Below, piece by piece: positions 5,682 to 63,550 of a stretch of 64,000 bases of DNA; the stretch's first letter is position 1; the number at the start of each line of letters is the position of its first letter. The stretch is taken from positions 69,799-133,798 of the forward strand of contig JAVBLR010000003.1 in NCBI GenBank assembly GCA_031553395.1, given 5' to 3'. The notes under the pieces are model-generated. The model did no database searches. It was not told the DNA's origin and saw nothing but the letters and a program-made list of their open reading frames with translations. Source of the DNA: Bacteroidales bacterium (GTDB lineage Bacteria; Bacteroidota; Bacteroidia; Bacteroidales; WRGA01). A program made the translations under genes and the position numbers.

Positions 5682-5738
5682 TACGTTATACGTTTTACGT
5701 CCTACGTTTTGGAGACGTAAGAGTGATAAAACGTAGGA
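5682..5738. repeat. Heptad-periodic hairpin element, TACGTTn class (groES-groEL spacer, proximal to groEL)
   Basis: Units read TACGTTA TACGTTT TACGTCC TACGTTT... TCCTACGTTTT (5700-5710) pairs with AAAACGTAGGA (5728-5738). It shares the 16-mer GTTATACGTTTTACGT with 13005-13020. Confidence 0.7.
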
Positions 5739-5770
5739 ATGTTTTTAATTTCTTAATCGAATATTTTTGT

Positions 5771-5829
5771 TTTACGTAACTTAAAATAGAAAAAACGCAA
5801 TACTCAAAGCGTATTACGTGTTACGTAAA
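5771..5829. repeat. Second ACGT-rich hairpin in the groES-groEL spacer
   Basis: TTTACGTAAC (5771-5780) pairs with GTTACGTAAA (5820-5829). There is an inner imperfect pairing GCAATAC/GTATTAC. It ends 10 nt from the groES stop. Confidence 0.6.
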
Positions 5830-5838
5830 ACGTTTTAC

Positions 5839-6108
5839 TTAAATAATTGCCAAAACATCAGATTGGCGCATGATAAGATAAGTTGTTCCGTCGAATTCAA
5901 GTTCTGTTCCGGCATATTTACCGTACAATACGTTTTGTCCTACTTGCAATACCATTTCTTCGTCTTTTGTACCGTTTCCTACTGCGATAACTTCTCCCTT
6001 CAATGGTTTTTCTTTAGCTGAATCTGGAATAATAATTCCGCTCGCTGTTTTTTCTTCTGCCACAGCCGGTTTGATCAAAACTCTGTCTGCTAATAGTTTA
6101 ATGTTCAT
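5839..6108 (-). CDS. groES: Co-chaperonin GroES (Cpn10)
   Basis: 89 aa, [46 protein letters not shown]..., upstream of groEL on the same strand. Confidence 0.97.
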
Positions 6109-6518
6109 AATTGCTTAATTTAGAAATTATTTAGTAAAGTTTAAATTTAAAAATCCGATTTTATTATGAGCGAATTGTATGCCAAAAAATCTCATTATCG
6201 ATTAATATTCTTTATCTATCCGTATAAATGTTTTGTTTTCAGACAAATATAAGTTTTGTCGAATTCTCTGTTAATTTAATATTTTTCAAATAATCATTTT
6301 TCTGACAGTTATATGCCAATTTGATAATAGTAAAATCGTTTTTCCTGCAAAAATGACAGTCTATATAACGGCGAAAAACATGTTTCAAAACATTGTTTTA
6401 TAACATGTTTTTAGAGGTTGCTTTTTGCATTTTTTATTTATAATTTGCAAACCGTTTTAAATCGTATTGAGCATTTGCTTAAAAACGGATAATACACTTT
6501 ATTACAGAGAACTTATAC

Positions 6519-6577
6519 GGAATTAAAGATGTTCATAAATCCTTAATTCTTATTTTTTAACTCTTAATTTTAATTTA
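6519..6577 (+). repeat. CTTAATT-heptad leader immediately upstream of the EF-G paralog start
   Basis: GGAATTAAAG...TCCTTAATT CTTATTT TTTAACT CTTAATT TTAATTT ATC-ATG. GAATTAA (6520-6526) pairs with TTAATTC (6543-6549). The sense-strand unit is the same as upstream of glnN. Confidence 0.5.
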
Positions 6578-6579
6578 TC

Positions 6580-8739
6580 ATGAAGGTATATCAATCGAAT
6601 GAAATTAAAAACATTTCCTTATTGGGAAGTGCAGGATCAGGTAAGACCACCCTCGCAGAAGCTATGCTCTTCGAGAGTGGCTTGATAAAACGCCGCGGGA
6701 CAGTAGATGGAAAAAACACCGTGTCGGATTATTTTCCGGTGGAACAAGAATATGGCTATTCGGTTTTTTCCACGGTTTTTCATGTTGAATGGATGAACCG
6801 GAAGTTGAATGTAATAGATTGCCCGGGTTCGGATGATTTTGTTGGTAGTGTTATTACTGCATTAAATGTTACCGACACTGCAATTATGGTAATTAATTCT
6901 CAATATGGAATAGAGGTTGGAACGCAAAACCTATTCCGTTATACAGATAAATTGCATAAACCTGTTTTATTTGCTCTTAATCAGTTGGATAATGATAAGG
7001 CTGATTATGATAATATTATTGAACAACTTCGCGAAAATTATGGCGGACGGATTGTTCAAATCCAATATCCCATTTCATGTGGAGCATCTTTCAACGCAAT
7101 GGTCGATGTGTTGAAAATGAAAATGTATAAATGGAAGCCAGAAGGTGGTGTTCCTGAAGTTCTTGATATACCTGCAGACCAAATGGATAAAGCGCAGGAG
7201 CTACATCAAAAATTAGTTGAAGCTGCTGCTGAAAACGACGAAGCTTTGATGGAAAAATTCTTTGATCAAGGTTCCTTGACCGAAGATGAAATGCGTGAAG
7301 GAATTCGCAAAGGTTTGATAACGAGAGGGATGTTTCCCGTTTTTTGTGTTTGTGCCGGACGAGATATGGGTGTTCGCCGCATGATGGAATTTGTAGGCAA
7401 TGTAGCTCCTTTTGTAAGTGAAATGCCTAAACCAACAACCAAAGATGGAAAAGAAATAGCTCCGGATGCAAATGGCCCGACGAGTCTGTATTTCTTTAAA
7501 ACAACGGTAGAACCACATATTGGAGAGGTTTCTTACTTCAAAGTAATGTCGGGGAAAGTAAAAGAAGGAGATGATTTGGTAAATGTAAACCGTAGTTCGA
7601 AAGAACGTTTGGCTCAACTATTCTGTGTAGCAGGACAAATACGGAGTAAAGTAGAAGAATTGGTTGCAGGAGATATTGGTGTTTCAGTTAAATTGAAAGA
7701 TGTTCGCACCGGAAATACGTTAAATGAAAAAGGATGTGAGTATTTATTTGATTTTATTAAATATCCGGAGCCGAAGTATCGCCGAGCAATTCGTGCTGCA
7801 AATGAAGCAGATACGGAAAAGTTAAGTGAGGTGCTTACACGTATGCACGAAGAAGATCCAACATGGATTGTTGAGCAATCAAAAGAATTGAAACAAACAA
7901 TTATTCACGGGCAAGGCGAATTTCACCTTAAAACGCTTAAATGGCGTATCGAGAATAATGACAAAATAATGATTGAATATATCGAGCCGCGTATTCCTTA
8001 CCGCGAAACGATAACGAAAGCTGCACGTGCCGATTATCGTCACAAAAAACAATCGGGTGGGGCAGGGCAGTTTGGCGAAGTTCACTTGATTATTGAACCT
8101 TACCACGAAGGCATGCCGGTACCGGGAACATACAAATTCAATGGGCAGGAGTACAAAATAACTGCACGTGATACACAAGAATATAACTTGGATTGGGGTG
8201 GAAAACTTGTGTTTGTAAACAGTATCGTTGGAGGTTCGATTGACGCACGTTTTTTACCGGCTATACTAAAAGGTTTGATGGATAGGATAGAGCAAGGTCC
8301 TCTTACCGGTTCGTATGCACGTGATGTTCGTGTAATTGTTTACGATGGAAAAATGCACCCGGTAGATTCTAATGAAATATCTTTCCGGTTGGCAGGACGA
8401 AATGCGTTCAGTCAGGCGTTTAAAGAAGCTAACCCCAAAATTTTGGAACCGATTTATGATGTGGAAGTATTAGTTCCCGGTGATAGGATGGGAGACGTAA
8501 TGGGCGATTTGCAAGGACGTCGTGCTATTATTATGGGAATGAGCAGCGAAAAAGGCTTTGAGAAATTAATGGCTAAAGTTCCTTTAAAAGAAATGTCATC
8601 CTATTCAACTGCATTGAGTTCTTTAACCGGTGGACGGGCTTCATTTACCATGAAGTTTGCAAGTTATGAACTTGTACCATCTGATGTTCAAGAAAAACTA
8701 TTAAAAGAATACGAAGCTTCTCAACAGGATGCCGAATAA
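6580..8739 (+). CDS. Elongation factor G paralog (EF-G-like translational GTPase family)
   Basis: 719 aa with G-domain motifs GSAGSGKTT (G1, non-canonical versus AHIDAGKTT), DCPGSDDF (G3) and NQLD (G4). EF-G domain IV/V-like C-terminal sequence follows (GQFGEVHL..., GRRAIIMGM...). Confidence 0.88.
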   Translation: MKVYQSNEIKNISLLGSAGSGKTTLAEAMLFESGLIKRRGTVDGKNTVSDYFPVEQEYGYSVFSTVFHVEWMNRKLNVIDCPGSDDFVGSVITALNVTDTAIMVINSQYGIEVGTQNLFRYTDKLHKPVLFALNQLDNDKADYDNIIEQLRENYGGRIVQIQYPISCGASFNAMVDVLKMKMYKWKPEGGVPEVLDIPADQMDKAQELHQKLVEAAAENDEALMEKFFDQGSLTEDEMREGIRKGLITRGMFPVFCVCAGRDMGVRRMMEFVGNVAPFVSEMPKPTTKDGKEIAPDANGPTSLYFFKTTVEPHIGEVSYFKVMSGKVKEGDDLVNVNRSSKERLAQLFCVAGQIRSKVEELVAGDIGVSVKLKDVRTGNTLNEKGCEYLFDFIKYPEPKYRRAIRAANEADTEKLSEVLTRMHEEDPTWIVEQSKELKQTIIHGQGEFHLKTLKWRIENNDKIMIEYIEPRIPYRETITKAARADYRHKKQSGGAGQFGEVHLIIEPYHEGMPVPGTYKFNGQEYKITARDTQEYNLDWGGKLVFVNSIVGGSIDARFLPAILKGLMDRIEQGPLTGSYARDVRVIVYDGKMHPVDSNEISFRLAGRNAFSQAFKEANPKILEPIYDVEVLVPGDRMGDVMGDLQGRRAIIMGMSSEKGFEKLMAKVPLKEMSSYSTALSSLTGGRASFTMKFASYELVPSDVQEKLLKEYEASQQDAE

Positions 8740-8762
8740 TCTTTTTGATAAATAAATAAGCG

Positions 8763-8797
8763 ATAAACGAGCCTGTATTACACTTGGCTCGTTTATT
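8763..8797 (+). terminator. Intrinsic terminator of the EF-G paralog
   Basis: ATAAACGAGCC (8763-8773) pairs with GGCTCGTTTAT (8786-8796), 24 nt after the stop. Confidence 0.7.
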
Positions 8798-8956
8798 GAA
8801 GATATACTGGATAATACAAATCCACAATCAAGTGGAAATATTAAAATTGTTTCTGAGAGAGATCTTTGTGATTCATGTTCTGATGCATTAGATGAATTTA
8901 GGAAACAACGTCCAGGTATTGAAGTTGAAGTTGTATATAAAAATGAATATCCCTAA
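8798..8956 (+). pseudogene. Start-less C-terminal remnant of a nucleic-acid deaminase-type polymorphic toxin domain
   Basis: Own translation of the frame ending at TAA 8954-8956: ...DILDNTNPQSSGNIKIVSERDLCDSCSDALDEFRKQRPGIEVEVVYKNEYP*. The pattern E-x3-C-x-S-C-x6-F-x4-P-x-I-x3-V resembles the second zinc-ligand (CxxC) end of YwqJ/SCP1.201-like deaminase toxins. There is no in-frame ATG/GTG/TTG, and the HxE half is missing. It stops 3 nt before the ankyrin gene. Confidence 0.45.
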
Positions 8957-8959
8957 GTT

Positions 8960-9379
8960 ATGGAAAACTATGATTTAACAACACTGATTTTCAATGAAGA
9001 TTTTGAAAAAGCCAAAGATTATGTAATAAAGAATAGTATTGATTTGAACTATATTAACAATAAAGGGGGAACTCCCTTATTGGTAGCGATTGATACTGGA
9101 GATCTTGATATGATTAAATTTTTATTAGACCATGGGGCTAATCCTAATTTTTTATCAAAAGAAATCAATACACCTTTAATCGAAGCTATTGAAATAGCTG
9201 TAGAAGAAAGCGATTATACGTATCATGGAGAAAAAGAACCTCGCATTGATGTGATAGAATTATTGATAAAGTATGGGGCTGACATAAGATTAAAGGATGG
9301 TTTTGGCAGAACTCCGATATCATTTGCATCTCGGTATCATTTACGGGCACAGAAACTTTTTGAAGAAATGGAAAAATAA
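8960..9379 (+). CDS. Ankyrin-repeat protein (candidate orphan immunity protein)
   Basis: 139 aa with clear ANK motifs (GGTPLLVAIDTGDLDMIKFLLDHGANPN; GRTPISFA...). Its position directly after the toxin-tip remnant suggests the immunity role. Confidence 0.8.
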   Translation: MENYDLTTLIFNEDFEKAKDYVIKNSIDLNYINNKGGTPLLVAIDTGDLDMIKFLLDHGANPNFLSKEINTPLIEAIEIAVEESDYTYHGEKEPRIDVIELLIKYGADIRLKDGFGRTPISFASRYHLRAQKLFEEMEK

Positions 9380-9496
9380 GAGAGTTCTTACTCATTATAG
9401 CATGCCAAGGGTGATGAGTGCAAGTTCGGCGTTTCGCTTCGTTGCGGTTAAAAGCAGCCTTCTATATGCATTTATATCTCAAAGCTGAATAATAAT

Positions 9497-9504
9497 TAAC
9501 TTTG
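9497..9504 (+). promoter_or_regulatory. Candidate -7 promoter box (TAnnTTTG)
   Basis: TAACTTTG, 30 nt upstream of the rsmE ATG. Confidence 0.4.
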
Positions 9505-9533
9505 CCATTTCAGATACTTAATTTATTCTTAAA

Positions 9534-10229
9534 ATGTATATTTTTTATACTCCTAATATATCGACAAGCAATAGCCTTTCGGAAGAAGAATCGCGGCATG
9601 CAATAAAAGTTTTGAGATTGAAAGAAGGTGATGAAGTATTGCAAACTGATGGCAAAGGATTTTTTTACAGAACAATAATTGTCAGTGCAAATTCAAAACA
9701 TTGCATAACCGAAATAATCGAAACAATTCCTCAGAAAATCGAAAGGGATTTTCGCATTCATATTGCAGTTGCACCAACAAAGAATTTAGACCGGATCGAA
9801 TGGTTTGCCGAAAAAGCTACCGAAATTGGTATCGATGAAATTACTCCATTGCGATGTCGTTTTTCCGAACGAAAAGAATTAAAAAACGAGCGAATCGAAA
9901 AAATTCTGATATCGGCAATGAAGCAATCCCAAAAAACGAATTTGCCTGTCTTGAATTCAATAATTGATTTTAAAGATTTTGTCAAACGAGAATTTCCAGG
10001 ACAGAAATTTATTGCACATTGTTATGAAGGACAAAAAGAAGAATTAAAAAAGTTATATACAAAAGGTTCGGATGCTTTGATATTAATTGGCCCTGAAGGA
10101 GATTTCAGTCAGGAAGAAGTTCAATTGGCAATTGGAAACGGATTTATTCCGATTTCATTAGGGAATTCACGCCTACGCACAGAAACAGCCGCATTGGTTG
10201 CTTGTCATACAATACACGTAGTTAATTAA
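9534..10229 (+). CDS. rsmE: 16S rRNA (uracil1498-N3)-methyltransferase RsmE
   Basis: 231 aa with an RsmE-family pattern: N-terminal PUA-like region (EESRHAIKVLRLKEGDEV) and C-terminal SPOUT region (ILIGPEGDFSQEE...LGNSRLRTETAAL). Confidence 0.88.
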   Translation: MYIFYTPNISTSNSLSEEESRHAIKVLRLKEGDEVLQTDGKGFFYRTIIVSANSKHCITEIIETIPQKIERDFRIHIAVAPTKNLDRIEWFAEKATEIGIDEITPLRCRFSERKELKNERIEKILISAMKQSQKTNLPVLNSIIDFKDFVKREFPGQKFIAHCYEGQKEELKKLYTKGSDALILIGPEGDFSQEEVQLAIGNGFIPISLGNSRLRTETAALVACHTIHVVN

Positions 10230-10232
10230 GAA

Positions 10233-10664
10233 TTAAAAGTCAAGAATTATTTTTAGCATTTTCAATGCCTCATTTTCCTTTTCCGTCATATCTGCGCGTT
10301 CTTTGGGCGATTTGTCTTTGATGCCGCAAAGGTGCAGTATTCCGTGAATGATTACACGGTGTAATTCTTCATCATAATCTGTATTGAATTTTTCGGAATT
10401 ACTTTTCACCGTATCCAAACTGATAAATATATCTCCCGAAATATCATTTTCCACGCCATAATCAAAAGTAATGATATCGGTGTAATAGTCGTGGTTGAGA
10501 TATTCATTATTAATACGGAGAATATATTCATCCGAACAGAAAATATAGGCAACATTTTCTACTTCTTTGCCATAAGTTTCTGCTACTTTTTTAATCCATT
10601 TTGAGATTTCCCTTTTGCGGATTTTGGGAGCTTTTATTTCTTCTGCTTGATAACTGATTGCCAT
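10233..10664 (-). CDS. ybeY: rRNA maturation endoribonuclease YbeY
   Basis: 143 aa with the zinc motif HGILHLCG in ...ELHRVIIHGILHLCGIKD. Confidence 0.92.
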   Translation of the reverse strand: MAISYQAEEIKAPKIRKREISKWIKKVAETYGKEVENVAYIFCSDEYILRINNEYLNHDYYTDIITFDYGVENDISGDIFISLDTVKSNSEKFNTDYDEELHRVIIHGILHLCGIKDKSPKERADMTEKENEALKMLKIILDF

Positions 10665-12152: not shown

Positions 12153-12187
12153 TTAGTTGTCAACTTGTTTAGTCGTTTACTTTTTCT

Positions 12188-12195
12188 TACATTTG
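12188..12195 (+). promoter_or_regulatory. Candidate -7 promoter box (TAnnTTTG)
   Basis: TACATTTG, 28 nt upstream of the ATG at 12223. Confidence 0.45.
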
Positions 12196-12222
12196 TTTTT
12201 TCTTAGACAAAAGTACATAAAA

Positions 12223-12999
12223 ATGAAGACAAAAGAAGAAATCGTTGAAAATTGGCTTCCCCGGTATACCAAACGTCCATTGGAGGATTTTTCAAAATAT
12301 ATATTACTGACAAATTTCTCGAATTATGTAAGAATATTTGCCGAGCATTTTAATGTGCCGGTATTAGGTTTGGATGGAAATATGCCTAATGCAAGCGCCG
12401 AGGGAATTACTATTATCAATTTTGGCATGGGAAGTGCAAATGCTGCTACGGTAATGGATTTGCTGGGAGCGATAAAACCTCATGCAGTACTGTTTTTAGG
12501 AAAATGTGGCGGAATTAAACACGTGAATGCGTTGGGTGATTATATCTTACCGATTGCAGCCATTCGGGGAGAAGGTACTTCGAATGACTATTTTCCGCCG
12601 GAAGTTCCTTCTTTGCCGGCATTTAACCTGCAACGTGCTGTTTCATCGACCATTCGGGATCACAGTCGCGACTATTGGACGGGAACAATCTACACAACTA
12701 ATCGCCGGGTGTGGGAATATGATGAACATTTCAAGGATTATTTGCGTAAAATTCGTTGTATGGCGGTAGATATGGAAACAGCCACGCTATTCAGTGTCGG
12801 TTTTGCCAACGAAATTCCAACAGGCGCATTATTGCTGGTTTCCGACCAACCCATGATTTCATCAGGGGTAAAAACCGATAAAAGTGATAAACTTATTACC
12901 GAGAATTATGTTAATGAACATGTTCTTATCGGCATCGAATCATTAAAAATATTAATCAAAAACGGAACAACCGTAAAACATTTACGGTTCGATTGGTAG
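12223..12999 (+). CDS. AMP nucleosidase-like / nucleoside phosphorylase family (PNP_UDP_1) protein
   Basis: The ORF-track start at 12157 is a TTG with an implausible hydrophobic leader. The ATG at 12223 gives MKTKEEIVENWLPRYTKRPLEDF.... Phosphorylase-fold motifs are present: GKCGGIK, IRGEGTSNDY, MAVDMETATLF. Confidence 0.75.
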   Translation: MKTKEEIVENWLPRYTKRPLEDFSKYILLTNFSNYVRIFAEHFNVPVLGLDGNMPNASAEGITIINFGMGSANAATVMDLLGAIKPHAVLFLGKCGGIKHVNALGDYILPIAAIRGEGTSNDYFPPEVPSLPAFNLQRAVSSTIRDHSRDYWTGTIYTTNRRVWEYDEHFKDYLRKIRCMAVDMETATLFSVGFANEIPTGALLLVSDQPMISSGVKTDKSDKLITENYVNEHVLIGIESLKILIKNGTTVKHLRFDW

Positions 13000-13001
13000 A
13001 T

Positions 13002-13054
13002 TATGTTATACGTTTTACGTTATACGTATTACGTGAAAGAGTATAAAGTATAAC
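13002..13054. repeat. Heptad-periodic element, TACGTTn class
   Basis: TATGTTA TACGTTT TACGTTA TACGTAT TACGTGA AAGAGTA TAAAGTA TAAC fills the gap between the stop at 12999 and the ATG at 13060. GTTATAC pairs with GTATAAC. It shares a 16-mer with 5685-5700. Confidence 0.6.
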
Positions 13055-13059: not shown

Positions 13060-14082
13060 ATGGCAAAAAAGGATGGTGTAACGCACACCGAAATTTTAAA
13101 TGATATCAAACGAAAACAGTTCAAGCCTGTGTATTTTTTCATGGGTGAAGAATCGTATTATATTGATTTATTGACCGATGCAATAATAGATAATGCATTG
13201 GCGGAATCGGAACGGGATTTTAATCAAACCATTTTGTATGGTGCAGATACTAATATTGCTGAAATCATCAATGCTTCGAAACGTTATCCGATGATGGCCG
13301 AAAGGCAATTAATTGTTGTAAAGGAGGCTCAAACGCTGAAAAATATAGATGAACTTTCCTATTATCTGCAAAAACCTCAACCTACAACTGTACTGGTCTT
13401 TAATTATAAATACGGAAAATTAGACGGACGGAAAAAAGTATCAACGGATATTGCAAAAGTTGGTGTTTTATTCGAATCGAAAAAGTTATATGATAACCAA
13501 CTTCCGACTTGGATTAATGGATATGTTACTTCGAAAGGTTATACTATCGATGGTAAATCAGCCGCAATGCTTACCGAATTCTTGGGAGCAAACCTTAGTC
13601 GTGTAGCCGGAGAATTGGATAAACTGATTATTACACTTCCTCAAGGAGAAAAACGAATAACGGACAGTTTAATCGAACGTAATATCGGTATAAGCAAAGA
13701 GTACAATACATTCGAATTACAAAAAGCGTTGGCTAACAGGGATATTCTCAGAGTAAACAGAATTGTCGATTATTTCGGAAAAAATACAAAAAATAATCCG
13801 ATGGTAATGACAATGAGTTTATTATTTTCCTTTTTTTCAAATCTGATGATTTGCCATTATGCTGTAAATAAATCCGAAAACGGAATAATGAATGAGTTGG
13901 GATTCAGAACTGCTTTTCAAACGCAGGATTATAGTACTGCCATGAGAAATTACAATGCTGTGAAAACCATGCAAATCATTTCGTTGTTTAGAGAATATGA
14001 TGCTAAATATAAAGGATTTCAAAGTGTTGCAGTATCTGAAGGAGATTTGCTGAAAGAATTAATGTACAAAATAATGCATTGA
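13060..14082 (+). CDS. holA: DNA polymerase III delta subunit
   Basis: 340 aa. The N-terminus ...FKPVYFFMGEESYYIDLLTDAI... and overall length fit the HolA family. Confidence 0.82.
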   Translation: MAKKDGVTHTEILNDIKRKQFKPVYFFMGEESYYIDLLTDAIIDNALAESERDFNQTILYGADTNIAEIINASKRYPMMAERQLIVVKEAQTLKNIDELSYYLQKPQPTTVLVFNYKYGKLDGRKKVSTDIAKVGVLFESKKLYDNQLPTWINGYVTSKGYTIDGKSAAMLTEFLGANLSRVAGELDKLIITLPQGEKRITDSLIERNIGISKEYNTFELQKALANRDILRVNRIVDYFGKNTKNNPMVMTMSLLFSFFSNLMICHYAVNKSENGIMNELGFRTAFQTQDYSTAMRNYNAVKTMQIISLFREYDAKYKGFQSVAVSEGDLLKELMYKIMH

Positions 14083-14165
14083 AAGGTAAAAAGTAACAAG
14101 TAAAAGGTAAAAATGGAATAATCCTACACCTTTTACCTTTTACCTTTTACCTTTTACCTTTTTTC
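14083..14165. repeat. Heptad-periodic hairpin, GGTAAAA/CCTTTTA class
   Basis: The left arm AAGGTAAAAAGTAACAAGTAAAAGGTAAAAATGG starts at the base after the holA stop. The right arm (CCTTTTA)x4-5 ends at the base before the marC-family ATG. Confidence 0.8.
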
Positions 14166-19800: not shown

Positions 19801-19879
19801 TAATACGTTGTATGTTTTACGTTATACGTAAATGGTTGATGTTACCGAGGCGTAGAACGTATTACGTAAAACGTAAAAC
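19801..19879. repeat. Heptad-periodic hairpin, TACGTTn class
   Basis: TAATACGTTGTATGTTTTACGTTATACGTAAA...GTAGAACGTATTACGTAAAACGTAAAAC. GTTTTACGTT (19814-19823) pairs with AACGTAAAAC (19870-19879). It lies in a divergent intergenic region. Confidence 0.65.
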
Positions 19880-19981: not shown

Positions 19982-20389
19982 ATGAGAAAAAAGACTTTAC
20001 GCTCCCCTTTATTGTACCTGTTTTTGATTGTTGTTACAATAATAATAGGTTTATCTTCCAGAAAATTCCCCGGATATTTTCCTGACTTTTTAGTTGAATA
20101 TTTAGGAGATGTTCTCTGGAGTTCGATGGTATATTTTGGAATTTGTTTGTTGTTTCCATCTGTAAGTATTAAAAAAGCATGCATTACAACATTGCTTTTC
20201 TCATATTTTATAGAAGTAACACAACTTTACCATGCACCGTGGATAGATTCAATCCGGAATAATCCGTTTGGCGCCTTGGTATTGGGGCATGGATTTTTGT
20301 GGAGTGATATGGTTTGCTATACAGTAGGCACGGCTTTTGCTGCCATAATGGATTGTATTTTCATTAAGATGAAAAAAGGTAAAAAGTGA
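19982..20389 (+). CDS. Small membrane protein (DUF2809-like)
   Basis: 135 aa with 4 hydrophobic helices: ...GLSSRKFPGYFPDFLVEYLGDVLWSSMVYF...GHGFLWSDMVCYTVG. The family name is from memory. Confidence 0.65.
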   Translation: MRKKTLRSPLLYLFLIVVTIIIGLSSRKFPGYFPDFLVEYLGDVLWSSMVYFGICLLFPSVSIKKACITTLLFSYFIEVTQLYHAPWIDSIRNNPFGALVLGHGFLWSDMVCYTVGTAFAAIMDCIFIKMKKGKK

Positions 20390-20408
20390 TTGTTACTTTT
20401 TACCTTTT
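20374..20408. repeat. GGTAAAA-class hairpin acting as a probable bidirectional terminator
   Basis: AAAAGGTAAAAAGT (20374-20387) pairs with ACTTTTTACCTTTT (20395-20408), a 14-bp perfect stem with a 7-nt loop. The left arm encodes the last codons (KGKK) and part of the stop codon. It shares the 13-mer AAAGGTAAAAAGT with 14082-14094. Confidence 0.75.
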
Positions 20409-22633: not shown

Positions 22634-22680
22634 TAATTAAGAATTAAGAATTAAGAATTAAGAATTAAGAATTAAGAATT
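22634..22680. repeat. Perfect 7-nt tandem repeat (GAATTAA)x5 plus partial copies, in the glnN 5' leader
   Basis: CTAATTAA GAATTAA x5 GAATTGG, starting 11 nt upstream of the glnN ATG (22623). On the sense strand it reads CTTAATT repeats. Confidence 0.9.
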
Positions 22681-22796: not shown

Positions 22797-22863
22797 GGCA
22801 AAGGGCGAAAGGCTAATAGCAAAAGGAAATTCGTTCGCCCTTTACCATTAGCCTTTTGCCCTA
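22797..22863. repeat. Heptad-periodic hairpin, AAAGGCn/GCCTTTn class, at the 3' end of the PUL operon
   Basis: GGCAAAGGGCGAAAGGCTAATAGCAAAAGG...CGCCCTTTACCATTAGCCTTTTGCCCT. AAGGGCGAA pairs with TTCGCCCTT, and AAAGGCTAAT pairs with ATTAGCCTTT (alternative registers). It ends 4 nt from the CE8 stop. Confidence 0.7.
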
Positions 22864-22866: not shown

Positions 22867-23808
22867 TCATTTGCATGTTGCAAAAAAGCTATCGGAGAAG
22901 AATCCATCTACGATAGCTTTTGCTTCTTTGTCTGTTAAAACTTTCGACCATTTGACACGGTTTGCAGTATCTGCTCCTTCACCGGAATTGTTGTATTCCA
23001 AGTACCTGGCAGTTTCTTCATTTGACTCTTTTCCCCAGTTATGCCAACCCAATGGTTTTATTTCTTTCGGTAATTCCGTATTCATGAAAAGCACCATGGC
23101 GTAAGGCCTCCAAGGCCTTCCTAAATAAACGGATGTAGCATCGTTGTCCATCGTAACATTACAATAGTTGAATATATATCCGTATGGTGAAGATTCGGGC
23201 GTGCTTGCAGCTGTTATATAGGAATTCCGTTTACAATTAATGGTACAAGTTTCAAACCATGCAGTTGCAGGCCCAAAAATAAAGTCGGTAGTACCTTCAA
23301 TATGACAGTTTTCAAAATACAGACGGGCAACATTATCTTTTCCTCCGGTATAAACTGTATCCTGATTTCCTAAAAGACGACAATTGCGGAAAACCAACCG
23401 ATCTCCCTCCGTATGTAATGCTACGGCTTGTCCAACTTGTCCTGCCGTATTTTCAATTGTAAGATTTTCTACTGTTATATCATTTCCTGCAATCATAAAA
23501 GTATAGGTTTTGAAGGTGCCCATATTGTTTAATGCAGCATAATCATTGTAGGATATAACCGTTTCATACATATTCTCTCCACGCAATATAATATTGCATT
23601 TGGTTGCAGGTAGAACTATCTTTTCATTATAAACTCCATTTTGAATGAAGATTATCGTATAATCAGGATTCGCATCACTAACAGAATTTATTGCATCCTG
23701 AACAGTTTTGAAATTACCTGTTCCATCTTGAGCAACTACAATCGTATTTGCATAAGTGGAAAAAGTATAAACAAACAGAATCAAAAAGGGAATTAAAAGC
23801 TTTTTCAT
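22867..23808 (-). CDS. Pectinesterase (carbohydrate esterase family 8)
   Basis: The ATG at 23808 gives the signal peptide MKKLLIPFLILFVYTFSTYA. CE8 motifs are present: GNQDTVY, DFIFG, YLGRPW. The longer track ORF (to 23925) adds an implausible leader that overlaps a hairpin. Confidence 0.9.
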   Translation of the reverse strand: MKKLLIPFLILFVYTFSTYANTIVVAQDGTGNFKTVQDAINSVSDANPDYTIIFIQNGVYNEKIVLPATKCNIILRGENMYETVISYNDYAALNNMGTFKTYTFMIAGNDITVENLTIENTAGQVGQAVALHTEGDRLVFRNCRLLGNQDTVYTGGKDNVARLYFENCHIEGTTDFIFGPATAWFETCTINCKRNSYITAASTPESSPYGYIFNYCNVTMDNDATSVYLGRPWRPYAMVLFMNTELPKEIKPLGWHNWGKESNEETARYLEYNNSGEGADTANRVKWSKVLTDKEAKAIVDGFFSDSFFATCK

Positions 23809-23877
23809 TGTATTAAGAAATTTGATGATGAGATTTAAAATTAAGGGTATAAATATAAGAAGAATATAGAAATTAAT

Positions 23878-23923
23878 GTGCCAATGTGCAGATATGCCAA
23901 TTAGAATACTGGCACATTGGCAC
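23878..23923. repeat. 12-bp perfect inverted repeat between the GH28 and CE8 genes
   Basis: GTGCCAATGTGC (23878-23889) pairs with GCACATTGGCAC (23912-23923), with TGCCAAT repeated in the loop. Confidence 0.7.
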
Positions 23924-23927
23924 ATTA

Positions 23928-29655: not shown

Positions 29656-29713
29656 TATGTATAATTTTAATTAGTGTTGTATCAATTGTAAAATGACGCA
29701 AAAAGTAGTAAAG

Positions 29714-29774
29714 AGTAGTTAGAGGTAATTATTCAGAAAGTTTATCATTGAAATGATAGCTACTTCTAACTACT
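29714..29774. repeat. Inverted repeat between susD and the downstream lipoprotein gene
   Basis: AGTAGTTAGA (29714-29723) pairs with TCTAACTACT (29765-29774). Confidence 0.45.
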
Positions 29775-29793
29775 GCTTAATAACTACATTTGA

Positions 29794-35091: not shown

Positions 35092-35722
35092 AATTGTTTT
35101 AGATTTAATTGAGTTTTAGATTAGTATTTATTCGTAATTTGATAGGGTTTATATAAATTGTTTTTCACGATGAAAATTATGCATAGGATATTTGTTTTTC
35201 TTTATGATAAAAAATTAGCTTCTTTTGACATTTTGATATTTTATTATGCATATCTATTTTTAAATTGAACATTTTAAAATAGTTGAAAGTTTTCATAGTG
35301 CATACTTTTAACAATTCTCGTATTTTAGGCTATTTTAGATAAAAAACATATAATAACACTTAGGGGCGTTAGCTATTTGTAAAAAACAGATGTATTTTTT
35401 TTATTTACACAAATATTTAAAGATTAACTTTAATAAAAAGATTGAATGTTAAGCATTTGCAATGTTAATGCATTTAGAAAAAAAGGAGCAGGTTAATTTT
35501 GCTTTTTTCTCATAGACAAATTGACACTATGCTTATTTTATTTTACATTTTATAACATAATGTCAATTTATCTATGATAAAAAGGCAATTTGACATTCGT
35601 CAATTCTGCGAAAAAGATTAATATTGCATTAAGAAACTGTATTGGATTTTGCAAATAATAATTGGAATGGAATTATTGTTAATAAAAAGTAGGATTTACT
35701 CAAAAAACAGTCGAAAGCATAC

Positions 35723-35760
35723 GACAGAGTGTTATTGTTATGACAGAGTGTTATTGTTAT
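35723..35760. repeat. Perfect 19-bp tandem direct repeat in the PUL divergent control region
   Basis: GACAGAGTGTTATTGTTAT (35723-35741) is repeated exactly at 35742-35760, about 150 nt upstream of the esterase ATG. Confidence 0.9.
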
Positions 35761-47505: not shown

Positions 47506-47659
47506 TCTTATAGCAATTATCTTCGCGCAATTATTGCAATTAGTTGTGCGAAGTTTAATGAAATTAAAACTTATAACTTAATACTTAACTATTATTAAAC
47601 CCATTTGAATCTCTCGTCTTGTTCTCTTTGAGGAATTCAAAACAAACTAAAAAAATAAC

Positions 47660-50767: not shown

Positions 50768-50875
50768 AGATAAAAGAACAAAGACTAAAGAAGAAAGAAA
50801 TAGATTTTGGAAGACAAGTAACAAAGGTCTCGCTGTCTTTTATATCTTTTTCGTCTGTCTTGTGTCTTTTGTCTG
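50768..50875. repeat. Heptad-periodic purine/pyrimidine hairpin, AAAGAAC / GTCTTTT class
   Basis: AGATAAAAGAACAAAGACTAAAGAAGAAAGAAATAG...GTCTTTTATATCTTTTTCGTCTGTCTTGTGTCTTTTGTCTG. The arms are imperfectly complementary. It lies between the stop at 50884 and the mutL start. Confidence 0.6.
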
Positions 50876-58086: not shown

Positions 58087-58118
58087 AATATCACGTTCAA
58101 ACCAAAAAAATAACCTCC

Positions 58119-59231: not shown

Positions 59232-59264
59232 AAGTGGATTGTTTTAGACTTATTTTGATGTAAG

Positions 59265-59272
59265 CAAAAATA
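59265..59272 (-). promoter_or_regulatory. Candidate -7 promoter box
   Basis: The forward sequence CAAAAATA equals TATTTTTG on the minus strand, 34 nt upstream of the ATG at 59231. Confidence 0.4.
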
Positions 59273-59339
59273 GAACATTATCTTTAATTGTCAATACTTA
59301 CTTGAAATATAAATCTTATGGAGATAATTAGTATCATAA

Positions 59340-59383
59340 AAGTAGAAAAAGTTGTTAAGGTTACTTAGCAACTTTTTCTACTT
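59340..59383 (-). terminator. Intrinsic terminator after the 922-aa T9SS protein gene
   Basis: AAGTAGAAAAAGTTG pairs with CAACTTTTTCTACTT, a 15-bp perfect stem ending 15 nt beyond the stop at 59398. Confidence 0.7.
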
Positions 59384-59397
59384 AAAATCAAAAAATA

Positions 59398-62166: not shown

Positions 62167-62272
62167 GGTTTTTCAATTTAGATTTTAATGTTAAAATTAA
62201 TTGATGCAAAGATTGGATGTAAAAAAACTTTTTATGTGGAATTTTTGACGAAAAAAGAGGAGTTTTTTAGAA

Positions 62273-62374
62273 AGTTATTTGTTTGCTAGTTATTTGTTTG
62301 ATTTTTAGTTCGTTGCTATAGCGTGACTATCATTTATTATCAAATAACAAATAACCAACTACCCAATAACTAAA
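62273..62374. repeat. Heptad-periodic hairpin, GTTATTT / AAATAAC class, downstream of tsaD
   Basis: AGTTATTTGTTTGCTAGTTATTTGTTTGATTTTTAGTTCGTTG...TATCAAATAACAAATAACCAACTACCCAATAAC. GTTATTTGTT (62274-62283 and 62289-62298) pairs with AACAAATAAC (62346-62355). Confidence 0.7.
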
Positions 62375-62404
62375 ATGTGGATAAATTATGATTTCTTAGC
62401 AGAC

Positions 62405-63436
62405 CTAAATTTCCACCCTTGCGAAAGCAGTAGCATCCATCGGGCAAAAATCTTTTTTTAAATATTTAAAATACCCTGAAATTGCAACCATTGCCGCATT
62501 ATCAGTTGTAAAGGAAAATGGCGGAATAAAAACTTCCCAATTATTTTTCTTTCCGTAATCGATAAATGCATTTCGTAAAGCCGAGTTGGCAGAAACGCCT
62601 CCGGCAACAGCTACTTGATTGATTTTTAAATTAGTTGCTGCTTTTTGCAATTTATTCATCAAAATATCTACAATTGTTGCCTGCAATGAAGCGCACAAAT
62701 CATGTTGATTTTTTTCGATAAATTGAGAATCTTCCTTTATTTTATCTCGAAGTAAATATAAAAATGAAGTTTTTAATCCGCTGAAACTGTAATTATAACC
62801 ATCAATTTGTGGTTTGCTGAATTTAAAAGTATTCGGGTTTCCTTCTTTGGCCAAACGATCAATAACCGGTCCGCCAGGATATGGCAGCCCCATTACCTTT
62901 GCACATTTGTCAAACGCTTCTCCGGCAGCATCATCTATGGTTTGTCCGACAACTTCCATATCATCCGGAGCTTTTACCAAAATGATTTGGGAATTTCCAC
63001 CGGAAACCAATAAGCAGAGAAATGGAAATTGTGGTTGGTGTATATCGGTTTCGTTTTGTTTGATGAAATGAGCCAATACATGTGCCTGCAAATGATTTAC
63101 ATCAATCATTGGAATTTGTAATGCTGAAGCAAAACCTTTGGCAAATGAAGTTCCTACTAATAAAGAACCCATTAATCCTGGGCCACGAGTAAAAGCAACG
63201 GCTGATAATTGATCTTTCGAAATATTAGCTCTTTGTAATGCTTCATGTACAACCGGAATAATATTTTGTTGATGTGCGCGGGAAGCTAGTTCCGGAACTA
63301 CACCGCCATACTTTTGATGCACTTCCTGATTTGTTATCACATTCGACAATAAAATATCATTTTTAATAACAGCTGCAGAAGTATCGTCGCAAGAAGATTC
63401 AATTCCGAGAATATAAATGTCTTTATTTTGAACCAT
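62405..63436 (-). CDS. tsaD: tRNA N6-adenosine threonylcarbamoyltransferase
   Basis: 343 aa, ...ILGIESSCDDTSAAV...GVVPELASRAHQ...VAGGVSAN..., a Kae1/TsaD pattern. Confidence 0.95.
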   Translation of the reverse strand: MVQNKDIYILGIESSCDDTSAAVIKNDILLSNVITNQEVHQKYGGVVPELASRAHQQNIIPVVHEALQRANISKDQLSAVAFTRGPGLMGSLLVGTSFAKGFASALQIPMIDVNHLQAHVLAHFIKQNETDIHQPQFPFLCLLVSGGNSQIILVKAPDDMEVVGQTIDDAAGEAFDKCAKVMGLPYPGGPVIDRLAKEGNPNTFKFSKPQIDGYNYSFSGLKTSFLYLLRDKIKEDSQFIEKNQHDLCASLQATIVDILMNKLQKAATNLKINQVAVAGGVSANSALRNAFIDYGKKNNWEVFIPPFSFTTDNAAMVAISGYFKYLKKDFCPMDATAFARVEI

Positions 63437-63449
63437 AAAATTAGTCTAT

Positions 63450-63550
63450 GGTTACAAGTTACAAGTTACGAGTTACAGGGTAGCTTCTTTTGAAATTTGA
63501 ATATAACTTTAAAGATTTCTCCTTGTAACTTGTAACTTGTAACTCGTAAC
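63450..63550. repeat. Heptad-periodic hairpin, GTTACAA / TTGTAAC class (longest arms in the window)
   Basis: The left arm GGTTACAAGTTACAAGTTACGAGTTACAGGG (63450-63480) pairs with the right arm CCTTGTAACTTGTAACTTGTAACTCGTAAC (63521-63550), with a 40-nt loop. It spans almost the whole gap between the stop at 63550 and the tsaD ATG at 63436. Confidence 0.85.

What the first reader, a model, noticed from the sequence alone, without database searches (positions are those of the whole stretch)
5682..63550. Dispersed family of intergenic hairpins whose arms are 7-nt tandem repeats
At least 12 intergenic sites carry 35-110 nt elements with the same architecture but different sequence. Two arms are reverse complements of each other, and each arm is itself 3-6 imperfect copies of a heptamer. 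The unit classes seen are listed here. TACGTTn: 5682-5738, 5771-5829, 13002-13054, 19801-19879. GGTAAAA/CCTTTTA: 14083-14165, 20374-20408. GAATTAA/CTTAATT: 22634-22680, 6519-6577. AAAGGCn/GCCTTTn: 22797-22863. TGCCAAT-type: 23878-23923. AAAGAAC/GTCTTTT: 50768-50875. GTTATTT/AAATAAC: 62273-62374. GTTACAA/TTGTAAC: 63450-63550. A weaker ACTTAnn run lies at about 47568-47598. Members of one class share exact strings at loci kilobases apart: the 16-mer GTTATACGTTTTACGT at 5685 and 13005, and the 13-mer AAAGGTAAAAAGT at 14082 and 20375. They are therefore related copies rather than independently evolved terminators. All lie outside CDSs or clip only a stop codon, and they often fill the gap from stop to next start almost exactly. 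Ordinary unique-sequence terminators with T tracts coexist in the same window (2292, 3947, 8763, 17233, 48832, 53284, 59340), so this looks like a separate class. The architecture does not match REP/BIME, MITEs with TIR plus target-site duplication, or CRISPR, and I do not know of a formal description.
Basis: seen in the sequence. Interest (0 to 1): 0.72.

Follow-up and report, generated by a model that had tools for sequence, protein, structure and literature searches.

The report
Intergenic hairpins built from 7-nt repeats
About a third of the gaps between genes in this Bacteroidales genome piece carry short DNA elements made of a 7-base unit repeated in tandem, usually on both arms of a hairpin; these are a fast-changing repeat class known from Xanthomonas and cyanobacteria, seemingly undescribed in Bacteroidales, and also found here in common human-gut Bacteroides.

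Summary
Lag-7 self-similarity marks 8 of 31 intergenic gaps (0.15 expected from per-gap shuffles), and no other lag from 4 to 12 gives any. Of the 14 listed sites, 9 are hairpins with 7-nt-periodic arms, two of them weak. One hairpin has period 8, and four are one-armed arrays that do not fold. Two unit classes are true paralogues, sharing 16-18-nt strings that include irregular units. No close relative of the window organism could be found. At 81-86% TsaD identity the two tsaD-flanking hairpins are absent. The same architecture occurs in other Bacteroidales, including Bacteroides cellulosilyticus, B. nordii and B. xylanisolvens. Near-identical contigs of those species differ by one 7-nt unit in one arm, by loss of the hairpin apex, and by inversion of the loop. 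Mismatches show no G·U excess on the sense strand, and only three window elements carry a terminator T-run. Best reading: DNA-level heptanucleotide-repeat palindromes, resized by slippage, homogenised by recombination between arms, and occasionally copied to new sites. Their RNA effects are probably secondary and REP-like. Paired heptamer arrays were described in Xanthomonas (Rehm 2015), so this is a new variant of a known kind.

The parts
5678..5738 (-). Element A. An array of (TTTTACG/TTATACG) units whose inner units pair with 5716-5738. It lies in the groES-groEL spacer and ends 10-14 nt before the groEL start codon. No T-run follows it.
   Evidence: TRF period 7 and 14. RNA fold -17.5 kcal/mol, z -4.6. 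Lag-7 identity 0.60.
5769..5838 (-). Element B. An outer stem of ACGTAAn units encloses an inner hairpin at 5795-5819 that is followed by TTTTTT, which looks like a terminator or attenuator just after groES.
   Evidence: RNA fold -23 kcal/mol, z -4.1. The terminator scan hits 5819-5795. TRF array at 5810-5843.
6519..6577 (+). Element H. A mostly one-armed CTTAATT-type array (6538-6575) that ends 2 nt before the start codon of the EF-G-like gene. The hairpin is weak.
   Evidence: TRF 5.6 copies at 75% matches. Fold z -1.8. Lag-7 identity 0.63.
10224..10249 (.). Extra weak AATTAAG-type array at the junction of two convergent gene ends.
   Evidence: TRF 3.7 copies at 68% matches. Shares the 14-mer TAATTAAGAATTAA with element G.
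13001..13054 (+). Element C. A one-armed (TTACGTT/TTATACG) array of 4.9 copies that fills the 60-nt gap before holA. It is not a significant hairpin.
   Evidence: TRF. Fold z -0.7. Shares 16-17-mers with elements A and D.
14082..14165 (+). Element E. A hairpin with an imperfect (AAAGGTA)4.6 arm and a perfect (ACCTTTT)5 arm. It fills the holA-marC gap exactly and is followed by a T-run, so it looks like a terminator.
   Evidence: TRF 100% matches on the 3' arm. Fold -28.6 kcal/mol, z -4.6. The arms pair at 0.73-0.88 in registers shifted by 7, 14 or 21 nt either way.
19801..19879 (.). Element D. A hairpin of TACGTTn / ACGTAAA units in a 270-nt divergent promoter region, so it has no upstream gene to terminate.
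   Evidence: Fold -28.4 kcal/mol, z -3.3. Matches the ACGT-N3-ACGT pattern. Gene map.
20374..20408 (.). Element F. A short hairpin with two units per arm (AAAAGGT AAAAAGT) between convergent genes. It has an A-run before it and a T-run after it, like a bidirectional terminator. It is a paralogue of element E.
   Evidence: Fold z -5.2. The terminator scan hits both strands. Shares an 18-mer with E.
22634..22680 (-). Element G. A perfect direct array (AATTAAG)6.6 lying 10 nt upstream of the start codon of the type III glutamine synthetase gene. It has no inverted partner.
   Evidence: TRF 100% matches, score 92. Fold z +0.5.
22797..22863 (-). Element J. A hairpin of GGCnAAn units that begins right after the pectinesterase stop codon. 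Irregular units pair in register (GGCTAAT with ATTAGCC).
   Evidence: Fold -36 kcal/mol, z -6.0. Three co-variant positions.
23875..23926 (-). Element K. A hairpin of the same design but with an 8-nt unit (GTGCCAAT), beginning right after the GH28 stop codon.
   Evidence: TRF period 8. Lag 8 = 0.78 against lag 7 = 0.21. Fold z -6.4. Intergenic once the pectinesterase start is corrected.
47561..47598 (+). Element O. A weak one-armed ACTTAAn array upstream of galK.
   Evidence: TRF 3.6 copies. Fold z +0.4.
50768..50875 (-). Element L. A weak purine-rich (AAAGAAC) arm facing a (GTCTTTT) arm, upstream of mutL.
   Evidence: TRF arrays at 50773 and 50856. Fold z -2.1. Lag-7 identity 0.69.
62273..62374 (-). 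Element M. A long imperfect hairpin (GTTATTT / AAATAAC) downstream of tsaD. Its 7-nt periodicity is weak.
   Evidence: Fold z -2.8. Lag 7 = 0.61 but lag 4 = 0.58. No counterpart in relatives L082, L084 or L085.
63450..63551 (-). Element N. The strongest hairpin, (GTTACAA)4 facing (TTGTAAC)4, filling the gap between the flavodiiron gene and tsaD. The upstream stop codon overlaps the first unit.
   Evidence: Fold -41.4 kcal/mol, z -8.8. TRF 90-95% matches. In relatives this junction is a 4-nt overlap, a 19-nt gap or a 75-nt gap, with no hairpin.

Best explanation
These are heptanucleotide-repeat palindromes. They are short intergenic DNA elements in which a 7-nt unit has been tandemly amplified on both arms of an inverted repeat, or on one side only. 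I read them as a DNA-level repeat class with fast turnover.

Proposed workings:
1. Units are gained and lost in 7-nt steps by slipped-strand mispairing.
2. The two arms are kept alike by recombination or template switching between them, which also flips the loop.
3. Whole elements are occasionally copied to other intergenic sites.
4. They survive only outside reading frames, because 7 is not a multiple of 3.
5. They often abut stop and start codons because they have expanded into, or inserted into, very short gene spacers.

They are transcribed as 3'UTR, intercistronic or leader RNA, where they can fold into long stem-loops that pair in several registers. A minority (E, F and the inner hairpin of B) look like intrinsic terminators. 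The rest, if they do anything, most likely act like REP sequences, as barriers protecting RNA 3' ends or as spacers.

Shown here: the periodicity, the folding potential, the restriction to intergenic DNA, the paralogy between copies, the turnover seen in relatives, and the lack of an RNA-specific mismatch bias.
Inferred: slippage, template switching, the copying mechanism, and any RNA role.
For: 1. Period 7 is specific and far above chance.
2. Across 2.59 Mb of Bacteroidota DNA there are 71 lag-7 arrays, 58 of them in the 13.7% that is non-coding.
3. Perfect 7-nt tandem duplications in non-coding DNA number 138, against 105 for 6-nt and 28 for 8-nt units. Arrays of three or more copies number 15 for 7-nt units against 0-4 for any other unit length. 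This fits the known heptanucleotide slippage bias (Mrazek 2007).
4. 45% of non-coding lag-7 arrays have an inverted partner within 160 nt, against 6% of random non-coding 35-mers.
5. The arms pair almost as well when shifted by 7 or 14 nt, but only at about 0.25 at other offsets.
6. One arm can be homogenised on its own: element E has a perfect (ACCTTTT)5 arm opposite an imperfect arm.
7. Polymorphism in Bacteroides contigs whose glutamine synthetase genes are 97-99% identical (species), read from the alignments and the element sequences (the loop inversions were checked by eye in those sequences): one extra 7-nt unit in one arm only (B. xylanisolvens group L103/L110 against L099/L100/L102); deletion of the hairpin apex (B. 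cellulosilyticus L140 and L142 against L137 and L146); and loop inversion at three loci (L127 against L125; L140 against L137; L125 against L132).
8. The hairpins flanking tsaD in the window are absent from relatives at 81-86% TsaD identity.
9. Mismatches on the transcribed strand are 11 G·U against 12 A·C in the window, and 37 against 39 overall. There is therefore no RNA-level signature.
10. Only 3 of about 10 window hairpins are followed by a T-run. Element D sits in a divergent promoter region.
11. The window encodes no transposase or recombinase.
Against: - Slippage alone cannot explain shared irregular unit order at loci 6-14 kb apart. Nor can it explain the Bacteroides TAGTGAT family, whose ends are conserved (TAGTGATTAG...CTAATCACTA) and whose loops share a motif (..ATGCCGCAT..AGCGCAGCC) across loci and species. 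Some copying mechanism is needed and I have not identified it.
- The placement at stop codons, a weak tendency for the purine-rich or G-rich arm to come first, and a paired change between orthologous hairpins in L137 and L130 could all reflect selection for function.
- No population data exist for the window's own species. All evidence for turnover comes from relatives at about 70% glutamine synthetase identity.
- The G·U against A·C test rests on only about 76 mismatches.
Confidence: 0.5

Rival explanations
1. They are non-autonomous mobile elements, like MITEs or REPINs, whose terminal inverted repeats happen to be heptamer arrays. An enzyme encoded elsewhere in the genome moves them. Slippage only modifies them after insertion.
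For: - Copies share irregular unit order.
- The Bacteroides TAGTGAT family has 6 copies in 22 kb, with conserved ends and a conserved loop motif, in several species and in 34 IMG/VR contigs.
- A whole 76-83-nt hairpin is present or absent within an A-run in sister species (L099 against L101 and L108).
- A 101-nt hairpin sits where relatives have overlapping genes.
- Bacteroidota genomes are reported to be rich in MITEs (PMC11602168).
Against: - The window holds at least 8 different unit classes, most seen at only one locus. Copies share 16-18 nt, not full length, and their loops are unrelated.
- One-armed arrays exist.
- No target-site duplication could be defined. The flanks are AT-rich, and the apparent TA ends are part of the repeat unit itself.
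- The window encodes no transposase.
- A true pair of filled and empty sites within one species was not found. The site upstream of glnA differs by replacement of the whole allele.
Confidence: 0.22
2. They are selected RNA structures: terminators, intercistronic stabilisers or processing sites. In this view the periodic arms are an adaptation, for example a stem that tolerates register shifts or whose length can be tuned.
For: - Ten elements fold with z of -2.1 or lower.
- They lie exactly between stop and start codons.
- Elements E, F and the inner hairpin of B have T-runs.
- In many Bacteroides species some kind of hairpin, periodic or unique in sequence, occupies the same spot after glnA.
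- Orthologous hairpins show a paired change, GGTTAG/CTAACC against GTTTAG/CTAAAC.
Against: - There is no excess of G·U over A·C on the sense strand.
- Most elements lack a T-run.
- In Bacteroides a canonical terminator lies further downstream of the glnA hairpin, and the hairpin is deleted or absent in contigs 99% identical in that gene.
- Element D is in a divergent promoter region, and four arrays do not fold at all.
- The hairpins are absent at orthologous junctions in relatives.
Confidence: 0.2
3. The arrays are binding sites for a protein that reads 7-nt repeats on RNA or single-stranded DNA, such as a cold-shock or S1-like OB-fold protein, as was speculated for the TAACTGA repeats.
For: - Several arrays end a few nucleotides before a start codon (A, C, E, G, H), as TAACTGA repeats do in Beggiatoaceae.
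- ACGT spaced 7 nt apart occurs 11 times against 0.44 expected.
Against: - At least 8 unrelated units occur within 64 kb, so a single sequence-specific reader is unlikely.
- Most arrays would be locked into a duplex by their partner arm.
- No candidate protein was identified.
Confidence: 0.06
4. They are ordinary intrinsic terminators, or an assembly artefact, and the periodicity is accidental.
For: Elements F and E look like terminators.
Against: - Lag-7 runs occur in 8 gaps against 0.15 expected, with nothing at other lags.
- The seven ordinary terminators in the window show no periodicity.
- An independent assembly gives an identical sequence.
- The same architecture appears in many independent assemblies.
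Confidence: 0.02

Closest known systems
Paired GGGAATC heptamer arrays of Xanthomonas campestris and X. axonopodis (Rehm et al. 2015, PLoS One 10:e0144275, PMC4692102)
   Same: - Tandem 7-nt units, typically about 4 copies.
- Dispersed, intergenic, and within about 50 bp of stop or start codons.
- In 70-75 cases per genome two arrays lie in convergent orientation and can form a stem-loop.
- Extensive length and sequence variation between related species.
- Function unknown.
   Different: - Xanthomonas has one dominant G-rich unit per genome with G-quadruplex potential. The window has at least 8 AT-rich unit classes, none able to form a G-quadruplex.
- The proportion that is paired is higher here.
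- The phylum is different.
- The same preference for about 4-5 units appears here without G-tracts, which argues that it is not caused by G-quadruplex formation.
Cyanobacterial STRR heptanucleotide repeats and prokaryotic long simple-sequence repeats with 5-11-nt units (Mazel et al. 1990, from my own knowledge; Mrazek et al. 2007, as summarised in PMC4679880 and PMC4692102)
   Same: Tandemly amplified heptanucleotides in non-coding DNA. Seven is the favoured unit length. Polymerase slippage has been proposed as the cause.
   Different: Those repeats are described as direct arrays. A hairpin arrangement is not a defining feature. Each genome has a few genome-wide unit families.
TAACTGA direct repeats of Beggiatoaceae, cyanobacteria and five Bacteroidetes (MacGregor 2015, PMC4679880)
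   Same: Heptamer arrays of 2-6 copies, intergenic, often ending a few nucleotides before a start codon. Some occur in Bacteroidetes.
   Different: A single unit sequence. Nearly all are direct repeats, with one inverted case among 170 sets. None of the window's units is TAACTGA.
REP and REPIN elements with their RAYT transposases
   Same: Short intergenic palindromes, transcribed with the flanking genes, lying between co-directional genes. This is the likely functional analogy: mRNA 3'-end barriers of selfish origin.
   Different: - No conserved GTAG or CGTC tag.
- No near-identical high-copy sequence in the window.
- The arms are tandem repeats.
- No RAYT gene is seen in the window.
BrickBuilt minisatellite inside MITE239 of Porphyromonas gingivalis (Klein et al. 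2015, PMC4596501; title and abstract only)
   Same: A Bacteroidales intergenic element that combines inverted repeats with tandem repeats.
   Different: From my own knowledge, the unit there is 23 nt and lies inside the MITE rather than forming its arms.
Canonical intrinsic terminators
   Same: Elements E, F and the inner hairpin of B have a stem followed by a T-run. F and E even carry the A-run and T-run of bidirectional terminators.
   Different: Most elements lack a T-run, have stems of 20-35 bp with low G+C, and sit in leaders or promoter regions. The ordinary terminators in the same window are not periodic.

Membership tests
Heptanucleotide simple-sequence repeats (STRR / long SSR type) | Head-to-tail copies of a 7-nt unit, three or more copies | tested here: met
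   TRF period-7 arrays of 2.7-6.6 copies. Lag-7 identity 0.55-0.97. Exception: element K has period 8.
Heptanucleotide simple-sequence repeats (STRR / long SSR type) | Over-represented against chance and against other unit lengths | tested here: met
   9 runs against 0.0 expected. 8 gaps against 0.15 expected, with other lags at 0. Excess of 7-nt units across 2.59 Mb.
Heptanucleotide simple-sequence repeats (STRR / long SSR type) | Located in non-coding DNA | tested here: met
   All window arrays are intergenic. 58 of 71 arrays lie in the 13.7% of bases that are non-coding.
Xanthomonas-type paired heptamer arrays (Rehm 2015) | Two arrays of the same unit on opposite strands, close together, able to form a stem-loop | tested here: met
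   Nine window hairpins with heptamer arms. Partner rate 45% against 6% in controls.
Xanthomonas-type paired heptamer arrays (Rehm 2015) | G-rich unit GGGNATC with G-quadruplex potential | tested here: not met
   The units are TTTTACG, GGTAAAA, AATTAAG, GGCAAAG, AAAGAAC, GTTATTT and GTTACAA. None contains a G-tract.
Xanthomonas-type paired heptamer arrays (Rehm 2015) | One dominant unit family genome-wide (about 180 sites) | tested here: not met
   The 64-kb window holds at least 8 unit classes. The genome-wide census could not be made because the rest of the genome is not available.
Xanthomonas-type paired heptamer arrays (Rehm 2015) | Length and sequence variation between close relatives | tested here: inconclusive
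   Met in Bacteroides relatives, which show a 7-nt unit difference, apex deletions and loop inversion. No close strain of the window organism was found.
REP / REPIN | Many near-identical imperfect palindromes of 20-40 nt | tested here: not met
   Window copies share at most 16-18 nt, and their loops are unrelated.
REP / REPIN | Conserved GTAG or CGTC tag at one end | tested here: not met
   Inspection of the element ends shows no such tag. Definition taken from PMC3733652.
REP / REPIN | A cognate RAYT (Y1 transposase) gene in the genome | tested here: inconclusive
   None among the 40 window proteins scanned against Pfam; a few genes were not scanned. The rest of the genome is not available.
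MITE | Terminal inverted repeats | tested here: met
   Trivially met by any hairpin.
MITE | Target-site duplication flanking the element | tested here: inconclusive
   The flanks are AT-rich. The B. xylanisolvens hairpin sits inside an A-run. The TA at the ends of the TAGTGAT family belongs to the repeat unit itself.
MITE | Multicopy family that is homologous over its full length | tested here: not met
   Not met in the window. It is met for the TAGTGAT family in B. cellulosilyticus and B. nordii loci.
MITE | A parent insertion sequence with matching ends | not testable with these tools
   This needs whole genomes.
Intrinsic terminator | G+C-rich stem immediately followed by a U-run | tested here: not met
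   Met only by E, F and the inner hairpin of B. A, D, J, M and N have no U-run directly after the stem; K is followed only by a loosely U-rich stretch.
Intrinsic terminator | Located at the 3' end of a transcription unit | tested here: inconclusive
   J, K, F, E and N follow stop codons. D is in a divergent promoter region. A, C, G and H lie just before start codons. No transcript data are available.
CRISPR | Identical repeats separated by unique spacers of constant length | tested here: not met
   The units are contiguous, with one loop per element.
Any Rfam family | Score at or above the family's gathering threshold | tested here: not met
   No match anywhere in the window.

The most novel reading that the evidence does not exclude
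Bacteroidales may carry a self-propagating class of 'sliding-register palindromes'. In this reading, heptamer-armed hairpins are generated and dispersed by a dedicated mechanism that is still unknown. That mechanism could be an enzyme that recognises 7-nt arrays, or a lineage-specific form of replication template switching. The elements would seed new stem-loops at gene ends at densities of about one per 4-7 kb, even in major human-gut Bacteroides, and so serve as an evolvable source of terminators or insulators and of small invertible loops.
Probability: 0.2. Interest if true: 0.8.

Novelty: new variant of a known kind. Interest (0 to 1): 0.6.

Why it matters
- These elements make up roughly 17% of the intergenic DNA in this window (my sum of the listed elements against the gaps), and they occur in about a third of gaps of 40 nt or more.
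- The same design recurs in cultivable, genetically tractable gut Bacteroides (B. cellulosilyticus, B. nordii, B. xylanisolvens). Questions left open since the Xanthomonas and cyanobacterial reports could therefore be tested there: why 7 nt, why about 4-5 units, how copies spread, and what they do.
- They are also a practical concern. They are likely hotspots for 7-nt indels, for small inversions, and for mis-assembly or mis-called gene starts. They could serve as high-resolution strain markers.
- The preference for about 4-5 units without any G-tracts questions the G-quadruplex explanation offered for the Xanthomonas repeats.

Tried and rejected
1. Search for close relatives, to look for polymorphism in the window's own species.
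- A genome-contig scan with holA gave at best 55-59% identity.
- A metagenome scan with glutamine synthetase gave at best 75%.
- Exact-protein look-ups returned only an identical 1.66-kb contig for GroES and nothing for MarC or the DUF2809 protein.
- TsaD homologues reach 86% identity. Their loci lack the hairpins.

2. Rfam at gathering thresholds found nothing in the window.

3. The sigma-70 promoter and terminator consensus scan was uninformative apart from elements F and B. Bacteroidota promoters are not covered by it.

4. The window's 16-mer has 5 exact hits in viral contigs, all chance matches in coding sequence.

5. The search for target-site duplications and for paired filled and empty sites was inconclusive.

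6. Arm polarity, meaning whether the purine-rich arm comes first, shows only a trend over too few independent families.

7. An in-register co-variation count gave mixed results. It was strong in several Bacteroides elements and in J, and absent in D and E; N's three counted positions lie in the flanks, not in its repeat units.

8. Ten literature searches found no description of these elements in Bacteroidales. Mrazek 2007 is not held in the library.

9. Ideas considered and dropped:
- Integron attC sites: the flanking genes are housekeeping genes.
- Inverted repeats of the B. fragilis Mpi invertase, of the form ARACGTWCGT (from my own knowledge): the spacing does not fit.
- IS608-type TTAC targets: TTAC is not present in all units.

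Full report
**Context**

The window has about 35% G+C. It encodes housekeeping genes: groES/groEL, an EF-G-like protein, holA, type III glutamine synthetase, mutL, ligA, tsaD and speA. It also holds a pectin-type polysaccharide utilisation locus with SusC/SusD, GH28, GH95, a pectinesterase and a hybrid two-component regulator. No transposase or recombinase is present.

The nearest proteins found are from Bacteroidales. TsaD is 86% identical to a 'Candidatus' MAG and 77-80% to Paludibacter. HolA reaches only 55-59% in the genome collection. Glutamine synthetase reaches 75% in metagenomes. So no close relative was available. An independent Logan assembly of the same strain is identical over 1.1 kb that includes three of the elements, which rules out an assembly artefact.

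Yes, in its core.
- TRF reports 16 period-7 arrays at the listed sites.
- A lag scan finds 9 runs at lag 7 and none at lags 4-6 or 8-13. Whole-window dinucleotide shuffles give 0.0.
- When each intergenic gap is shuffled separately, 8 of 31 gaps carry a lag-7 run against 0.15 expected, with a maximum of 2 in 100 shuffles. No other lag gives any.
- Lag-7 self-identity of the arms is 0.55-0.97 in 13 of 14 sites. It is 0.23-0.48 in the seven ordinary terminators of the window.
- All sites are intergenic. The apparent overlap of 23878-23923 with the pectinesterase ORF disappears once the start is moved to the signal peptide at about 23808.

Several details need correcting.
- RNA folding gives clear hairpins for 5682, 5771, 14083, 19801, 20374, 22797, 23878 and 63450 (z -3.3 to -8.8). 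62273 (z -2.8) and 50768 (z -2.1) are weaker.
- 13002, 22634, 6519 and 47568 fold no better than shuffles. They are one-armed direct arrays.
- 23878 has an 8-nt unit. 62273 is only weakly heptameric.
- A further weak array lies at 10224-10249.
- So 9 sites have the full architecture, one is an octamer hairpin, and 4-5 are one-armed arrays.
- By my count from the gene map, about a third of gaps of 40 nt or more are occupied, and the elements make up about 0.9 kb of roughly 5.5 kb of intergenic DNA.

**Are the copies related?**

For two classes, yes.
- ACGT spaced at 7 nt occurs 11 times against 0.44 expected, all at four loci between 5.6 and 19.9 kb.
- Elements A, C and D share the 16-17-mer GTTTTACGTTATACGT(A), which is an alternation of two variant units.
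- Elements E and F share the 18-mer AAAGGTAAAAAGTAACAA in opposite orientation.
- Shuffled elements share 7.4 nt on average and 12 at most.
- Shared irregular unit order indicates copying rather than convergence. The loops, however, are unrelated, and most unit classes occur at a single locus.

**Anatomy and likely RNA role**

- The arms pair almost equally well when shifted by 7 or 14 nt (0.64-0.88 complementarity). At other offsets they pair at about 0.25. The minimum-energy fold accounts for under 1% of the DNA folding ensemble for N and E. These are stems that can slide between registers.
- Only E, F and the inner hairpin of B are followed by a T-run.
- A, C, E, G and H end within 14 nt of a start codon.
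- D lies in a divergent promoter region.
- On the transcribed strand, mismatches are 11 G·U against 12 A·C in the window and 37 against 39 over 24 elements. This is the symmetry expected of a DNA-level palindrome, not of a selected RNA helix.
- One arm can be homogenised independently of the other: E has a perfect (ACCTTTT)5 arm opposite an imperfect arm.

**Evidence from relatives**

- In contigs at 81-86% TsaD identity, the flavodiiron-tsaD junction is a 4-nt overlap, a 19-nt gap or a 75-nt gap, with no hairpin. In L082, tsaD is followed by a classical GC-rich terminator. Lag-7 arrays number 0-2 per 21 kb. The strongest window hairpins are therefore lineage-specific gains.
- Across 2.59 Mb of Bacteroidota DNA fetched here, 71 lag-7 arrays were found. 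Of these, 58 lie in the 13.7% that is non-coding.
- 45% of the non-coding arrays have an inverted partner, against 6% of random non-coding 35-mers.
- Perfect 7-nt duplications exceed 6-nt and 8-nt ones in non-coding DNA: 138 against 105 and 28.
- Some genomes are as rich as the window or richer: a rumen Bacteroidales MAG (L040) has 9 arrays in 21 kb.

The most informative site is the spacer after the type III glutamine synthetase gene in human-gut Bacteroides. Between the stop codon and a conserved downstream block, different species carry one of the following:
- nothing;
- a unique-sequence hairpin;
- a hairpin with GAACGGT arms (B. xylanisolvens group);
- a hairpin with TAGTGAT arms (B. cellulosilyticus and B. 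nordii).

Contigs whose glutamine synthetase genes are 97-99% identical differ in three ways:
- by exactly one 7-nt unit in one arm (L103 and L110 against L099, L100 and L102);
- by deletion of the hairpin apex (L140 and L142 against L137 and L146);
- by inversion of the loop, seen at three loci when the sequences are compared by eye (L127 against L125; L140 against L137; L125 against L132).

A canonical terminator lies further downstream. The hairpin is therefore inside the 3'UTR and is dispensable.

The TAGTGAT family has 6 copies in 22 kb of B. cellulosilyticus. The order is always (TAGTGAT)n, then the loop, then (ATCACTA)n. Each copy starts at or overlaps the upstream stop codon. The ends are conserved, and many of the loops share a motif. 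In several copies the two arms are exact inverted copies that include irregular units. Orthologous hairpins in L137 and L130 show a paired change. This looks like a true dispersed family. It also occurs in 34 IMG/VR contigs.

**Interpretation**

The simplest account that covers all of this is a DNA-level class of heptanucleotide-repeat palindromes.
- Slippage in 7-nt steps resizes each arm. This is seen directly in relatives.
- Recombination or template switching between the arms keeps them alike and flips the loop. Inversions and exact arm identity are seen in relatives.
- Palindrome instability removes the hairpin apex. This too is seen in relatives.
- Elements are occasionally copied to new intergenic sites. 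This is inferred from paralogy, and the mechanism is unknown.
- Frameshifting confines them to non-coding DNA.
- Their RNA stem-loops probably have REP-like side effects, and a few serve as terminators.

I put this at about 0.5. The main rival is a MITE- or REPIN-like element mobilised by an enzyme encoded elsewhere (about 0.22). The Bacteroides family makes this plausible, but the many single-locus unit classes in the window do not. A primarily RNA-level function is about 0.2. A protein that reads heptads is about 0.06.

**Relation to what is known**

- Heptanucleotide arrays are the commonest long-unit simple-sequence repeat in prokaryotes (Mrazek 2007).
- They are known as STRR in cyanobacteria (from my own knowledge, and reference 39 of PMC4692102).
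- TAACTGA arrays occur in Beggiatoaceae, cyanobacteria and five Bacteroidetes.
- In Xanthomonas, Rehm et al. reported 70-75 convergent pairs of GGGAATC arrays per genome that can form stem-loops. These are intergenic, lie near stop and start codons, vary between species, and have no known function.
- So the architecture itself has been described.

What differs here:
- the phylum;
- many AT-rich unit classes within one genome;
- the high proportion of paired arrays;
- the absence of G-quadruplex potential, while the size of about 4-5 units is kept;
- the polymorphism types documented in Bacteroides.

I found no description for Bacteroidales in ten full-text searches. Automated MITE censuses of Bacteroidota exist, however.

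Verdict: a new variant of a known kind, with interest about 0.6.

Noticed in passing
L137 about 12290-12370; also L099-L167 just after the glutamine synthetase match (sequences): Downstream of the type III glutamine synthetase gene lies a conserved block of about 35 nt (TTATCTATTTCTTTTGTTGGTTGTTTTAAGTTTGC). It is followed by a species-variable GC-rich hairpin and a T-run. It is shared by contigs assigned to Bacteroides and Phocaeicola, with a diverged form in further, unassigned contigs. This pattern suggests a conserved 3'UTR-derived or independent small RNA, reminiscent of enterobacterial GlnZ (from my own knowledge).
   Followed up: partly
L125 4153-4267 against L132 4170-4277; L137 5748-5842 against L140 2734-2821; L125 against L127 at about 12181-12291: The 20-30-nt loops of heptamer-armed hairpins are inverted between Bacteroides contigs whose glutamine synthetase genes are 97-99% identical. 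These are very small natural invertible segments.
   Followed up: partly
window 35499-35588 and 35723-35760: The 780-nt divergent region between the SusC-like gene and the esterase and hybrid two-component regulator genes holds a long non-periodic inverted repeat (33-nt arms, 88% complementary). It also holds a perfect 19-nt tandem duplication (GACAGAGTGTTATTGTTAT x2). These could be regulatory sites of the polysaccharide utilisation locus.
   Followed up: no
window 6367-6419: Three copies of a 12-nt palindromic unit (AAAACATGTTTT) form a near-perfect palindrome about 260 nt upstream of groES, in the divergent region. It could be an operator.
   Followed up: no
window 29706-29782: An inverted repeat between the SusD-like gene and the DUF5123 gene has arms with a period of about 10 nt (lag-10 identity 0.68). 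It follows the same design principle with a different unit length.
   Followed up: partly
window 22867-23925: The mechanical ORF start at 23925 is probably wrong. A typical signal peptide (MKKLLIPFLILFV...) starts at about 23808, which leaves a 119-nt spacer holding hairpin K.
   Followed up: yes
L173-L206 (IMG/VR contigs): (TAGTGAT)n arrays occur in 34 viral-collection contigs. In L188, L189 and L199 matches lie on opposite strands, about 170 nt apart in L188 and L189. Whether these contigs are phages of Bacteroides or host fragments was not checked.
   Followed up: no
L082 (8817-10004 and 10001-11023) against window 63437-63549: In the nearest relative the flavodiiron gene overlaps tsaD by 4 nt, which suggests translational coupling. 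In the window a 101-nt hairpin separates the two genes.
   Followed up: partly
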